DNA from: Escherichia coli
GTDB taxonomy: Bacteria; Pseudomonadota; Gammaproteobacteria; Enterobacterales; Enterobacteriaceae
NCBI RefSeq assembly: GCF_003334255.1
Contig: NZ_QOWU01000019.1
DNA: 64,000 bases
Strand: one strand, 5' to 3'
Part shown: positions 6,940 to 14,284 of the stretch, piece by piece
How the letters are laid out: each line of letters opens with the position of its first letter
Position numbering within the stretch: the stretch's first letter is position 1
The notes under the pieces: model-generated
What the model was told of the DNA's origin: nothing
Databases searched by the model: none
What the model saw: only the letters and a program-made list of their open reading frames with translations
Translations under genes and position numbers: made by a program

Positions 6940-7172
6940 AGTAATAATATCCAATTTATCCCTCATTCCTTAAGTAAGCGTACACTGGCCGCGTACACCA
7001 TGGCATAATAATACGTTGTTTTACTGATATTTCCGGCTGTTAAAATCCCCGACGGCCCGGCTGAAGCTGGTGCAGGAAAGCGGGTTAATTGTCACTACGC
7101 GGGATAGCCTGTCTGGCTGGATACAACGTATTGCCACAGATATGCAGCAACTGCGTCAGTCCGGAATGTCAG

Positions 7173-7445
7173 TCATCTCCGGGGATGTTGAGGTCTCAGG
7201 CACACTGACCGGCCCCCCGTGTTGTTTCCGGGTACTGTTTTTGATTTATGCAACAAAGTATCGCAGCGTCGAATATGAGCTATGGCCAGATTTTTGTTAA
7301 TCGTGGTTGTTGCAACATGTAAGGCGAATGACCACACTATTCTGGCACGCTCGTAATCACGCTGAAATTCCGCTTCCTGTGCTGCCGTGAAGAGTTCCGA
7401 CCAGGACATACGGCGAAGTGTATGTCTGTCAGTAATATCCGTCAT
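7173..7445 (-). CDS. Hypothetical small protein (90 aa); has a diverged paralog at 13956-14171
   Basis: ORF overlapping the upstream ORF by 4 nt; a ~75% identical nucleotide segment occurs in inverted orientation at ~13950-14180, and this frame is the better conserved one. Confidence 0.35.
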   Translation of the reverse strand: MTDITDRHTLRRMSWSELFTAAQEAEFQRDYERARIVWSFALHVATTTINKNLAIAHIRRCDTLLHKSKTVPGNNTGGRSVCLRPQHPRR

Positions 7446-7657
7446 GAGCTCTCAGCCTCCTCCTTCGTATTTCCGTCAGAAACACAAACGCCCCGCAGAG
7501 AAAATTCGCCAACATTCTCCTTTTTAATGGCGCGCAATGCATCGCGACAGGCCCGTTCGGTATGAAATGCCTGGCTGTGCACCGCCAGTGTGGGCTGCCG
7601 GGCATCACCGGAAGAGACATTAAAGGGAGATGAAAGCCAGAAAATCAGTAGCCACAT
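7442..7657 (-). CDS. Hypothetical small protein (71 aa) with hydrophobic N-terminus (possible signal peptide)
   Basis: ORF within a tightly packed co-oriented cluster; N-terminal MWLLIFWLSSPF hydrophobic stretch. Confidence 0.3.
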   Translation of the reverse strand: MWLLIFWLSSPFNVSSGDARQPTLAVHSQAFHTERACRDALRAIKKENVGEFSLRGVCVSDGNTKEEAESS

Positions 7658-7660
7658 GCG

Positions 7661-11514: not shown

Positions 11515-11566
11515 ATTACTAATCTCCGATCATGTTAACCGGCAAGACAATACACAAATACAAACA

Positions 11567-11584
11567 ATAATGAGAATAATTTAT
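11567..11584 (-). promoter_or_regulatory. Putative Fur box in the iha promoter region
   Basis: ATAATGAGAATAATTTAT resembles the Fur consensus GATAATGATAATCATTATC; lies ~55-70 bp upstream of the iha start in an AT-rich region. Confidence 0.45.
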
Positions 11585-14284
11585 ATTTACCTTTTACAAA
11601 AAATAAAGATTATTGACAAAACTAAATATAAATAACGACTGCCTCGGCATGCCAGTTAACAGCTATCCGTATGGCGTGTTCGGTTTTGCGAATAAAAAAT
11701 GGTTACTGTAGAAGCGGATTTCCACCACATGTCAACCATGAATGGTCAGTGGTGCGAGACGACTGGGATGATTTGGTCGATGACTTCTTCCGGCGAATAC
11801 TGATAGAAACATTGAAATATTGTAAGAGAAAGCGTTCAAAATTCTGTGGCACGTGAAAAATTCTACAGCGTCATCACCTTATTCAGTCGACCTTCAAAAT
11901 AAACGTTTAACAGAGACAATCACCATTTGGATTGTCCGCTGAGGAGGTGAACGATTTCCTAGACAGCTTTATCATGCCAGCCCACATTGTTGGCGCTGAC
12001 AATACTAAGGACAAACGATGGGGAAGTAGCTTTTTAGCGTTATTTTCGGGAGTAAAAAACGTGGTATCTTTCCGTATGTCAGTTGTATCTTGCTGGTATT
12101 CGTAGTCGTGATAGGGCATACAACGATATTTATCTTGACGTTAGTGAAGAATAAGTTGTTTTGTGATCTATGTTAATCTAGGATTACAATCCGGGCTTGA
12201 TACATCGCATCACGACTTTTATTCTCTTCAGAGTAGAATATGTTACTCCCCGTTTTACAGGCTCAGGATTTGAATTACAAATTATACTTTTAAGTGAACA
12301 ATAACCAGGGGTATTTCTTATTTCCTGAAACCAGGCTTGGCCCATTTCGGGATGAGTTTGAAAAAACTCTTGACGCATACGATAGTGATGAAATAAACGA
12401 AACAAATTACGTCAACAAACTCAGGCGTCTTGCCTGACATGCTCCTGACATCATTGATATTCACGCTCATCTGGCATATGCATTTGCGCTCTTTATGCTG
12501 CAATTCTGGCGAATGTTCATTTACAGCGTCATCAGGATGCCGTTATACTCATTGATAAAATACTAACATATAACCCTGAGAATAATCAGGGGACACGCTG
12601 GTTACTGGGGGCGGAATTGTTACGTGCTGGCAAGCATGACAGGGCTCTGTACGTATTGACAGGACATGTCAATGAATTTCCCCCCTACTGGTACGAGCTT
12701 GCTCTTTTACATTTTATGAATGAGGAATATATTAATGCTGCAACGGCATTTCGATATGGATTTTTAACAAGCATATATTGTTGAAATGCTTTGTTAGAAT
12801 CTTTATCCATTCCCTGGGGCTGTATAGTATGATTTTTCAGGTATTTCTGAATACTGCCAAATATTATTGCAAAATATTCTCTAAATTATGAATTAAATAT
12901 CCATAAGCATTATTGCCTGGGAACTGGACATATAATCACTCTTCTGTGCTAAAGGAATGTTCTGAAATGTTTAAGTGTGCAGAGATGTTGATGGTGGAAG
13001 AAGATGATAAAGTATGTGAACTTATTTTTAAACAACAAGATAATTTGATTTTAAAAATAAATCATAGATTTCCCAGAATAATTATAAAGAAATACCGAAC
13101 ATTACAAGGTAAAGTCGTATGGCTATGGATATTGCCATTTGTTATTGAATGGTTAAGTGTGCGCACTTTGGGCGCAAACAGTTAGTGAAGTAAAAGTAAA
13201 TATCATGATTATTGTTTGTTAAGGAGTGAGATGCCTGTGCGTCTGGTGTCTATTATATTCCCATCATTATTGGCGCTATTTTTGCTGGCGTAGGCATCGC
13301 CACACTATGAATATTGTGTTTGTCGTGATTCAATTTTTATTTATAACCTCTACCCGGAGCAAATTCAGGTAGGTCATGCATAAAAATATCTTTCTATACT
13401 ACGAAACTACGAAACTACGAAAATTATTTTTGTGAAAGTATTGACAACGCTAACTATTTTTAATTATATATTCATGGTGCTCTAGGCATCACATTTTCTC
13501 CATGGGGTATTCCCTCCGCCGGCACTATGTGTTGCTGGCGTTTTTTTTATCAATTCTTACTTTTTAATCCCACTGTCCTTTCCACCAGAAACATACCTCG
13601 TTTCTACTGTATTTTGAGAATATAGTTCCCAGAATACCAATTATATATAATACGTTGTAATATATGTATTCCAATTAAAGCCGTTATTATAATAATTATC
13701 ATATATGGTTCTTTTCATGTTGATTTCGTCAGAAACAGAAAATGCTGATGATGAATTGTGAATAATCAAACTGACCTCTAATTATCCTGTATGGAGTAGT
13801 GCTTATTTTCGACTCAATTTCTACTGATTATATTATGGTTATCAGTACAGTGGGTTATGAAAAACGGACTGGATCTGCCAGCAGTGCTTCTATTATTCTT
13901 CAAAAAGAACTTCAGCCGGACAATGCTATAATCCAGGGAAAGGCTATAAGCTCTGTTGGACGGAATGTGGAAATCAGCACTGGTAAAAAGGGGAACTGAC
14001 ATTAACACAAGAAGGATTCCTGCAAGCAACTGCTTATCTGTCCGGAACGCAGAATTAAAGCATGACCACACAGGAGCCAGAATACTGTGGTCGTACGCAT
14101 TCAGTATTGTGACAACTAATAGAAATAAAAATCTGGCCGGTGCGAATATTAAACGATGCGATACCGTATAGTGTAAGTCAAAAGTAACGGGGTATTTAAA
14201 CCATCTTTTCATATTTATTTAATATAATGCAGATTCTGATGTATTAGTTCAGTTGTTCGCCAGAATCAGCGCTCGATCACTATG

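What the first reader, a model, noticed from the sequence alone, without database searches (positions are those of the whole stretch)
7170..14180. Inverted ~230-300 bp homologous segments (7170-7450 vs 13950-14180) bracket the iha region
The 90-aa ORF at 7173-7445 (minus) and an ORF at 13956-14171 (plus) share a conserved core (ARIVWSFALHVATTTINKNLAIAHIRRCDT vs ARILWSYAFSIVTTNRNKNLAGANIKRCDT), and the DNA is ~75% identical in inverted orientation. The two copies flank a ~6.5 kb segment holding the small-ORF cluster, an IS66 remnant, iha and AT-rich DNA. This could mark an old duplication/inversion, the ends of a composite mobile unit, or a repeated small gene family whose second copy is decaying.
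Basis: seen in the sequence. Interest (0 to 1): 0.45.

Follow-up and report, generated by a model that had tools for sequence, protein, structure and literature searches.

The report
Two diverged copies of a small plasmid gene
The two "inverted repeats" around the iha gene are an intact copy and a broken, fused copy of a small regulator-like gene normally found on conjugative plasmids; they are leftovers of island patchwork, not the ends of a mobile or invertible unit.

Summary
The similarity is real but much shorter than described. It is 71% DNA identity over 108 nt (7239-7346 vs 14076-14183) and 50% protein identity over 44 codons. The longest exact match is 12 nt, and the flanks are not homologous.

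Copy A (7173-7445, minus) is the last gene of a five-ORF operon. That operon lies in a 1.73 kb block (6991-8720) that is 94.5% identical to the backbone of I-complex (IncI1/IncK/Z) conjugative plasmids.

Copy B (14037-14171, plus) lacks its first ~20 codons. It is fused to a 5' fragment of an iha-like TonB-dependent receptor gene (13820-14036). In O157:H7 EDL933 the fusion reads as one 111-aa chimeric ORF; in this window an extra A breaks it.

The family is a divergent branch of the ANR (AraC negative regulator) small proteins. It has three predicted helices and 5 of 7 signature residues. ORF A scores below the NCBIfam cut-off, but one relative passes it.

A and B occur separately in different E. 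coli lineages: A-iha in ST131, iha-B in O157, and both contiguous in only 59 of 5,426 genomes. None of the 5,426 genomes carries the inverted junction. The composite-unit and inversion readings are not supported. This is ordinary island mosaicism and of low interest.

The parts
6033..6939 (+). IS110-family transposase pseudogene. It is the left neighbour that truncates the plasmid-derived block.
   Evidence: PGAP annotation of the 99.8% identical record NZ_OZ546911.1; broken ORFs.
6991..8720 (.). 1.73 kb block derived from the I-complex (IncI1/IncK/Z) conjugative plasmid backbone. On plasmids this region lies between the pnd/hok locus and the ECs1377-family gene and nuc.
   Evidence: 94.5% identity over 1738 nt to L003, and 87-91% to L002 and L004. 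367 plasmid records match, 358 of them conjugative, and one checked plasmid is typed IncK2/Z with MPF_I.
6999..7213 (+). 3' remnant (last ~70 codons) of the ECs1377-family/HTH gene, which is convergent with ORF A on plasmids.
   Evidence: tblastn gives 67% identity, E~1e-17. The full-length plasmid gene hits NF052300 ECs1377_fam at 297.6 bits.
7173..7445 (-). Copy A: a 90-aa ANR-like small ORF, the last gene of the plasmid-type operon. Its start overlaps the stop of the upstream ORF (ATGA) and a GGAGG lies ~12 nt upstream. A 2-nt deletion relative to plasmids alters the C-terminal tail.
   Evidence: NCBIfam ANR_neg_reg E=1.6e-5, 24.6 bits. AF2 model has three helices.
7442..8640 (-). Four small ORFs (7442-7657, 7661-8044, 8041-8232, 8320-8640) of the same plasmid operon.
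   Evidence: The same or near-identical proteins are annotated on IncI-type plasmids, for example WP_000266543.1. They hit PHROGs of unknown function.
9056..9206 (+).
   Evidence: PGAP pseudogene annotated only as 'transposase domain-containing protein' in L001, L005, L012 and L013. The IS66 assignment was not tested here.
9424..11514 (-). iha, encoding the bifunctional siderophore receptor/adhesin Iha (696 aa).
13476..13549 (+). Esr41 sRNA gene within the bracketed AT-rich DNA.
   Evidence: Rfam RF02676, 103.4 bits against a gathering score of 102, full length.
13820..14036 (+). 5' fragment of an iha-like TonB-dependent receptor gene (TonB box and start of the plug, equivalent to Iha residues ~23-97). 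It lacks a signal peptide. A 1-nt insertion in an A-run at ~13985 shifts the frame relative to EDL933.
   Evidence: 44% identity to Iha residues 27-97. NF010012 (Iha equivalog) profile positions 23-97, E=1.9e-9. Indel located.
14037..14171 (+). Copy B: the remnant of an ANR-like gene (codons ~21-64 only) fused in line to the iha-like fragment, with an early stop. DNA homology to copy A and to plasmids runs to 14183.
   Evidence: In EDL933 the fusion is annotated as a 111-aa ORF, WP_001310149.1.
14292..14656 (-). DDE transposase (IS3-type) pseudogene remnant, the right neighbour of copy B. Coordinates are approximate because they were mapped from EDL933.
   Evidence: PGAP annotation of L005 9513-9877 mapped onto the window through the colinear 98.8% alignment. 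IS3-like ORF fragments appear.

Best explanation
The two segments are separately derived, long-diverged copies of one small protein-coding gene. Its natural home is the backbone of I-complex conjugative plasmids, where it is the last gene of a five-ORF operon convergent with the ECs1377-family gene.

Copy A arrived as part of a 1.73 kb piece of such a plasmid. IS remnants bound that piece on both sides. Copy A is still an intact ORF.

Copy B is a scar. Only codons ~21-64 of a more distant family member survive. They are joined directly to a 5' fragment of an iha-like receptor gene and are followed by an IS3-type remnant.

The inverted arrangement has no function of its own. The shared DNA is 108 nt at 71% identity with at most 12 identical bases in a row. 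By established knowledge, RecA-dependent recombination in E. coli needs roughly 20-30 identical bases, so this is too little. The bracketed segment is neither mobile as a unit nor invertible.

Shown here: the homology, the plasmid origin of A, the chimeric nature of B, the independent distribution of the two copies, the absence of the inversion, and coding-frame selection.

Inferred: the protein is a three-helix, ANR-like protein-binding modulator. By analogy with Aar, Rnr and Cnr it would bind AraC/XylS-type activators and/or H-NS, rather than binding DNA or acting as an enzyme. Copy A may still do this; copy B most likely does nothing.
For: The homology is real.

Copy A lies in a plasmid-derived block. 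Window 6991-8720 is 94.5% identical to L003. The same operon sits between hok/pnd and ECs1377/nuc on plasmids. 367 plasmid records match, 358 of them conjugative. The 3' remnant of ECs1377 lies beside A.

Copy B is chimeric. It aligns to Iha and hits the Iha equivalog NF010012 at profile positions 23-97. EDL933 carries it as a 111-aa ORF, and the frameshift in this window is located. No ECs1377 remnant lies beside B.

The two copies are distributed independently. The A block is in 973 genomes with 810 chromosomal places. B is in 694 genomes. The contiguous A-iha-B arrangement is in 59. ST131 and Seattle 1946 have A-iha followed by IS3. EDL933 has ter genes where A would be.

No inversion isomer exists: 0 of 5,426 genomes. 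The longest exact match is 12 nt.

It is a real gene. dN/dS is 0.23 in the ORF frame against 1.3-1.6 in the other two frames. A against B gives 0.33.

It is ANR-like. NF033650 is the only NCBIfam hit. Relative P0052 passes the cut-off at 41.1 bits against 32, and others score 28.5-30.7. The AF2 model has three helices at pLDDT 83.5. Five of the seven signature residues from PMC4983702 are present (mapped by hand).
Against: ORF A itself scores below the curated ANR cut-off (24.6 and 20.6 bits against 32), and copy B has no NCBIfam ANR hit at all. Two of the seven signature residues (W43, R47) are replaced. No AraC/XylS gene was seen beside the gene on the plasmids inspected. Pfam, PDB sequence search and Foldseek gave nothing specific. 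No expression or binding data exist.

The same gene order, receptor then ANR-like gene, on both arms is an unexplained coincidence under this model.

Which of the three island configurations is ancestral was not resolved.
Confidence: 0.8

Rival explanations
1. An ancient inverted duplication, or head-to-head juxtaposition, of a whole 'iha-type receptor ... ANR-like gene' module. The right-hand copy then lost everything between receptor codon ~97 and ANR codon ~21 in one deletion.
For: Both arms have the same order and strand logic: receptor gene upstream and ANR-like gene downstream, with the arms facing each other across the AT-rich spacer. The A-IS66'-iha linkage is old and widespread, in about 800 genomes. 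The region around the ANR-like gene on I-complex plasmids accepts cargo insertions.
Against: A is 94.5% identical to extant plasmids but 71% identical to B. iha and the fragment share 44% protein identity and no detectable DNA similarity, so a duplication at this locus is excluded. No plasmid or genome was found with an Iha-type receptor beside an ANR-like gene outside this island.
Confidence: 0.08
2. The two segments are the inverted ends of a composite transposon or a recombinase- or RecA-driven invertible segment that carries iha.
For: Their inverted orientation brackets a virulence gene and IS debris.
Against: The repeats are 108 nt of 71% identical coding DNA with a longest exact match of 12 nt. 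They contain no transposase or recombinase. The A and B ends occur independently. 0 of 5,426 genomes has the inverted junction.
Confidence: 0.02
3. The conserved core is a cis-acting DNA or RNA element, such as an antisense RNA or a binding site, rather than a protein-coding sequence.
For: On plasmids PGAP leaves the ORF unannotated. It overlaps the 3' end of a convergent gene.
Against: Substitutions between plasmid variants are strongly frame-specific, with dN/dS of 0.23 against 1.3-1.6 in the other frames. The ORF is kept open in all variants with translational coupling to the upstream ORF. Distant protein relatives exist at 42-53% identity. No Rfam family matches there.
Confidence: 0.03
4. 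The similarity is chance or compositional.
For: The match is short and the repeat finder did not list it.
Against: E-values are 1e-10 to 1e-15 at both DNA and protein level. Both copies match the same plasmid gene independently.
Confidence: 0.01

Closest known systems
ANR (AraC negative regulator) family: Aar of EAEC 042, Cnr of ETEC, Rnr of C. rodentium (NCBIfam NF033650; PMC4038620, PMC4983702, PMC5570504)
   Same: It is a small protein of about 9-10 kDa with three predicted alpha-helices. The signature residues A10, E14, A22, W26 and A29 and the C-terminal Cys are present. NF033650 is the only family model hit, and relative P0052 passes its cut-off. It is carried on mobile elements, as many anr genes are (PMC11357031).
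   Different: It scores below the curated cut-off. W43 and R47 of helix 3 are replaced by Leu and His. It has an extra ~14-residue N-terminal extension (MTDITDRHTLRRMSW). It is embedded in a conjugative-plasmid backbone operon with no AraC/XylS partner gene nearby. No functional data exist.
I-complex (IncI1, IncK, IncB/O, IncZ) plasmid backbone region between excA/pnd and nuc/trbA
   Same: The window block 6991-8720 is colinear with it and 87-95% identical. It contains the same five small ORFs and the 3' end of the ECs1377-family gene.
   Different: Here the block is a chromosomal fragment cut by IS remnants on both sides. It lacks hok/pnd, the rest of the ECs1377-family gene, nuc and all transfer genes. 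A 2-nt deletion changes the tails of ORF A and of the ECs1377 remnant.
The iha module of the tellurite-resistance/adherence island of E. coli O157:H7 (OI-43/48, SpLE1; PMC3064760)
   Same: Window 8847-15899 is 98.8% identical to and colinear with EDL933. The shared stretch includes the IS66 remnant, iha, the AT-rich spacer with Esr41 and copy B.
   Different: In EDL933 ter genes lie where the plasmid block with copy A lies here. Copy B reads as an uninterrupted 111-aa chimeric ORF there but is frameshifted here.
Composite transposons and invertible DNA segments bounded by inverted repeats
   Same: Only the geometry matches: two inverted homologous stretches around a cargo gene.
   Different: There are no IS copies or recombinase sites in the repeats. 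Identity is far too low. The two ends are distributed independently and no inversion isomers were found.

Membership tests
ANR family (NF033650) | Score at or above the curated NCBIfam cut-off (32 bits) | tested here: not met
   ORF A scores 24.6 bits (E=1.6e-5). The plasmid form scores 20.6 bits. Copy B has no hit. Relatives at 42-62% identity score 28.5-30.7, and one (P0052) scores 41.1. Homology to the family is therefore supported transitively, but ORF A does not qualify on its own.
ANR family (NF033650) | Small size (<10 kDa) with three conserved predicted alpha-helices (PMC4983702) | tested here: met
   The plasmid forms are 74-83 aa and the window form is 90 aa. The AF2 model has mean pLDDT 83.5 and helices at 15-27, 31-44 and 48-70, plus a short N-terminal helix.
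ANR family (NF033650) | Seven highly conserved signature residues: A10, E14, A22, W26, A29, W43, R47 (PMC4983702) | tested here: inconclusive
   Mapping by hand onto ORF A gives A22, E26, A34, W38 and A41, which correspond to A10, E14, A22, W26 and A29. With a 2-residue shorter loop, L53 stands for W43, H57 for R47 and C61 for C51. That is 5 of 7 plus the Cys. Most of these columns are invariant or nearly so in alignment A5.
ANR family (NF033650) | Binds and antagonises an AraC/XylS-family activator and/or H-NS, and is usually encoded with or regulated by such an activator | not testable with these tools
   No AraC/XylS gene is annotated within 4-5 kb on the plasmids inspected or beside copy A. 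Binding and repression need experiments.
Composite transposon / IS-bounded unit | Ends formed by two copies of an IS, or its terminal inverted repeats, at near-identity | tested here: not met
   The repeats are the coding core of a small non-transposase gene, 71% identical over 108 nt. IS debris lies near both copies, but it comes from different families: IS110, a transposase-domain fragment and an IS3-type remnant.
Composite transposon / IS-bounded unit | The whole unit moves together and is found intact in different contexts | tested here: not met
   A-IS66'-iha occurs without B in ST131 and Seattle 1946. iha-B occurs without A in EDL933. Only 59 genomes have both contiguous.
Invertible segment | Both orientations occur in related strains | tested here: not met
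   A synthetic junction for the inverted state was covered at >=80% in 0 of 5,426 complete E. coli genomes. Only the left junction was queried.
Iha-type TonB-dependent receptor (NF010012 / PRK13486), for the fragment upstream of copy B | Full-length 696-aa receptor with signal peptide, plug and 22-strand barrel (cut-off 924 bits) | tested here: not met
   Only profile positions 23-97 are present (36.5 bits, E=1.9e-9), with 44% identity to Iha residues 27-97. Pfam and PDB sequence searches found nothing. It is a gene fragment, not a receptor.

The most novel reading that the evidence does not exclude
A divergent ANR-type anti-activator/H-NS modulator is a conserved backbone gene of I-complex conjugative plasmids. 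On the plasmid records inspected the ORF is unannotated, and elsewhere the family carries the name 'neurotensin receptor R8'. This gene has been fixed next to iha in the chromosomes of about 800 ExPEC genomes, including ST131. There it could still act in trans on host or island gene expression, for example H-NS-silenced AT-rich island DNA including iha and Esr41. A weaker variant: the mirrored receptor-then-ANR order on both arms records an ancestral plasmid-borne linkage between an Iha-type receptor and this operon.
Probability: 0.2. Interest if true: 0.4.

Novelty: new member of a known kind. Interest (0 to 1): 0.15.

Why it matters
As a structural feature it does not matter. It is not a mobile or invertible unit, and the iha region should not be described as one. 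Three modest points are useful. (1) The 'small-ORF cluster' and ORF A next to iha in many ExPEC islands are a captured piece of I-complex plasmid backbone, which helps reconstruct how these islands were assembled. (2) The 111-aa 'hypothetical protein' WP_001310149.1 of O157:H7 is a chimera of two gene fragments, and the annotation should say so. (3) A divergent ANR-like gene family sits just under the NCBIfam threshold, so it goes unnamed or misnamed. If it really modulates H-NS or AraC-type regulators, it would be a plasmid-to-host regulatory link worth one experiment.

Tried and rejected
- The repeat finder with seed 9 did not detect the pair.
- MAFFT of 420-nt segments showed no homology beyond the core.
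- Pfam found nothing for ORF A or for the 111-aa chimera.
- PDB sequence searches found nothing.
- Foldseek against PDB gave only generic TPR/MIT-like three-helix matches, with best E=0.16.
- I first read the 'TDINTRR' stretch of copy B as the N-terminus of the ANR-like gene, because tblastn extended the alignment there. I dropped that reading when the Iha profile covered it up to position 97. The exact junction (about 13995-14037) keeps some ambiguity.
- I looked for an ECs1377 remnant beside B and found none.
- I looked for an intact B-type gene. The protein database held only frameshift variants of the same E. coli locus. tblastn against plasmids found only the A-type at 48-50%. The GTDB species-representative scan found a single contig, a 97.8% identical copy of the same E. 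coli module binned as Collinsella.
- The genomic contexts of distant relatives (P0051, P0052, P0054, P0058) showed conjugative-element backbones but no TonB-dependent receptor.
- The promoter/terminator scan of 6900-9000 was no better than shuffles.
- The in-situ duplication and composite-transposon models were rejected for the reasons given under the rival explanations.
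Full report
**Observation**

Their products align at 22/44 identical residues, E=2e-15 for the pair. A six-frame search of the whole window finds each with the other at E about 1e-11 to 1e-12 and finds no third copy.

At the DNA level the match is 71.3% over 108 nt, 7239-7346 inverted against 14076-14183 (E=1.4e-10). A global alignment of 420-nt segments shows nothing beyond the core. The repeat finder with a 9-nt seed did not list the pair, and the longest run of identical bases is 12.

The similarity is therefore real and not low-complexity. 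It is about half as long as described, and somewhat weaker.

**What copy A is**

The window is E. coli. The 7.5 kb around the finding is 99.8% identical to several bloodstream and ST69-type isolates. In those records PGAP calls ORF A and its four upstream neighbours 'hypothetical protein'.

A sensitive search with the copy B segment hit plasmids. Inspecting them showed the same small ORFs in the backbone of IncI1-type conjugative plasmids. They lie between the hok/pnd locus and a convergent ECs1377-family/HTH gene followed by nuc, dqlB and trbA.

Window 6991-8720 is 94.5% identical over 1738 nt to one such plasmid and 87-91% identical to two more distant ones. 367 plasmid records match, 358 of them predicted conjugative. 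One example is typed IncK2/Z, MOBP, MPF_I.

On the plasmid the ORF is 83 aa, overlaps the stop codon of the preceding ORF, and ends inside the 3' end of the convergent ECs1377-family gene. PGAP does not annotate it in the plasmid records inspected.

In the window the last ~70 codons of that convergent gene survive at 6999-7213. The full-length plasmid gene matches ECs1377_fam at 297.6 bits. A 2-nt deletion alters the tails of both overlapping reading frames.

The block is cut on the left by an IS110 pseudogene.

**What copy B is**

Window 8847-15899 is colinear with, and 98.8% identical to, the iha region of the tellurite-resistance island of O157:H7 EDL933. In EDL933, ter genes stand where the plasmid block stands here.

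In EDL933 copy B is annotated as an uninterrupted 111-aa ORF (WP_001310149.1). Its first ~67 residues resemble the TonB box and early plug of Iha. They show 44% identity to Iha residues 27-97. The Iha equivalog model NF010012 matches profile positions 23-97 at E=1.9e-9. Pfam and PDB sequence searches see nothing.

Only the last 44 residues are ANR-like, corresponding to ORF A residues 21-64, and they are followed by a premature stop. In the window an extra A in an A-run near 13985 splits this chimeric ORF. This is why PGAP calls it a frameshifted pseudogene in the closest genome.

No ECs1377 remnant follows copy B. An IS3-type remnant does. Copy B is 70-80% identical at the DNA level to the plasmid genes, and closest to the divergent plasmid L004.

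I found no intact B-type gene anywhere. The protein database returns only frameshift variants of this same locus. The scan of species-representative genomes returned only a 97.8% identical copy of the same module in a MAG binned as Collinsella.

**Is it a gene, and of what family?**

Between plasmid variants, substitutions give dN/dS of 0.23 in the ORF's frame but 1.3-1.6 in the other two frames. A against B gives 0.33. The ORF is therefore a selected coding sequence.

The only NCBIfam model that matches is ANR_neg_reg (NF033650). ORF A scores 24.6 bits and the plasmid form 20.6 bits, against a cut-off of 32.

An exhaustive search of 1.8 billion cluster representatives found only 22 proteins. 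A handful of them are distant relatives at 42-53% identity. Those score 28.5-30.7 bits on the ANR model, and one, P0052, scores 41.1, above the cut-off. P0052 and P0054 are themselves encoded inside conjugative-transfer regions.

The AlphaFold model built on the family alignment has pLDDT 83.5 and three helices at 15-27, 31-44 and 48-70. This fits the three-helix description of ANR proteins in PMC4983702.

Mapping the published signature by hand, five of the seven conserved residues (A10, E14, A22, W26, A29) and the C-terminal Cys are present. W43 and R47 are replaced by Leu and His. Foldseek finds only generic TPR/MIT-like helical bundles.

I conclude that this is a divergent branch of the ANR superfamily. 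Membership of the curated family is not met by score, and the function is inferred only.

**Do the repeats do anything?**

The plasmid block with copy A occurs in 973 of 5,426 complete E. coli genomes, with 810 chromosomal places. Copy B occurs in 694 genomes. The contiguous A-iha-B arrangement occurs in only 59.

ST131 and the Seattle 1946 strain carry A, the transposase fragment and iha, followed about 380 bp later by an IS3 element, with no copy B adjacent. EDL933 carries iha and B without A.

I built the junction that an inversion through the shared core would create and searched all complete genomes. None covers it. Only the left junction was queried.

With at most 12 identical bases in a row, the core is below the length usually needed for RecA-dependent exchange (established knowledge of minimal processing segments, about 20-30 bp). 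The segment is neither a composite transposon nor an invertible element, and the two copies were not produced by duplication at this locus.

**An unexplained coincidence**

On both arms the order is receptor gene first, then ANR-like gene: iha ... ORF A on the minus strand, and iha-like fragment then B on the plus strand.

A duplication at this locus is excluded by the identity values. A is 94.5% identical to plasmids but 71% to B, and iha and the fragment share 44% protein identity with no DNA similarity.

A head-to-head meeting of two anciently related modules is not excluded. The neighbourhood of this gene on I-complex plasmids does accept cargo: a phosphoethanolamine transferase in L004 and a serine-protease autotransporter in L015. 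I give this reading about 8%.

**Verdict**

The feature is ordinary island mosaicism.

The by-products are modest. The ORFs beside iha now have a plasmid origin. An O157:H7 'hypothetical protein' is a chimera of two gene fragments. A sub-threshold ANR-like family is a backbone gene of I-complex plasmids.

Interest 0.15; new member of a known kind.

Noticed in passing
window 13476-13549 (+): A full-length match to the EHEC sRNA Esr41 (Rfam RF02676, 103.4 bits against a gathering score of 102) lies in the AT-rich spacer between iha and copy B. It is about 280 bp upstream of the iha-like fragment. The ExPEC-type island therefore carries this 'EHEC' sRNA gene together with the iha module.
   Followed up: no
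L005 9056-9391 (EDL933); window 13835-14171: The O157:H7 'hypothetical protein' WP_001310149.1 (111 aa) is a chimera of an Iha-like TonB-box/plug fragment and the C-terminal two-thirds of an ANR-like gene. It differs from the window by a 1-nt A-run indel, which decides whether it is annotated as a gene or a pseudogene.
   Followed up: yes
window 7173-7445; plasmid loci L002/L003/L004 around 4930-5185: The ORF A family is named 'neurotensin receptor R8' in several public records, which is an evident misnomer. It is left unannotated in the I-complex plasmid records inspected, although it is under frame-specific purifying selection.
   Followed up: partly
L004 5413-7564; L015 810-4901: The plasmid backbone around the ANR-like gene is a cargo insertion spot. 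In one plasmid a phosphoethanolamine transferase (mcr-like by annotation) plus a DUF2569 gene sit between the ANR-like ORF and the ECs1377-family gene. In another a serine-protease autotransporter sits between nuc and the small ORFs.
   Followed up: no
L008 (JAIJJM010000258.1, 4261 bp): A contig of a MAG labelled Collinsella sp. is 97.8% identical over 3.2 kb to the E. coli iha-module DNA (window 12698-15899). It is most likely mis-binned or contaminant.
   Followed up: partly
window 24542-25723 (-) and about 25900-27400 (+): A 393-aa tyrosine recombinase ORF lies directly beside ulaE/ulaF, and the core genes rpsF-priB-rpsR-rplI follow. ARAGORN finds no tRNA gene anywhere in the window. The island's integrase end therefore seems to abut the ula operon rather than a tRNA.
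   Followed up: no
window about 12300-12800 (+): Broken ORFs in the AT-rich spacer (for example 12617-12784) are annotated as a 'tetratricopeptide repeat protein' in some related genomes. They look like another decayed gene inside the bracketed segment.
   Followed up: no
window about 400-4850 (mapped from L001 1484-5938): A lutABC-type lactate-utilisation cluster with an L-lactate permease lies just left of the finding, between IS66 and IS110 debris. In ST131 only a fragment of the permease remains at the corresponding place.
   Followed up: no
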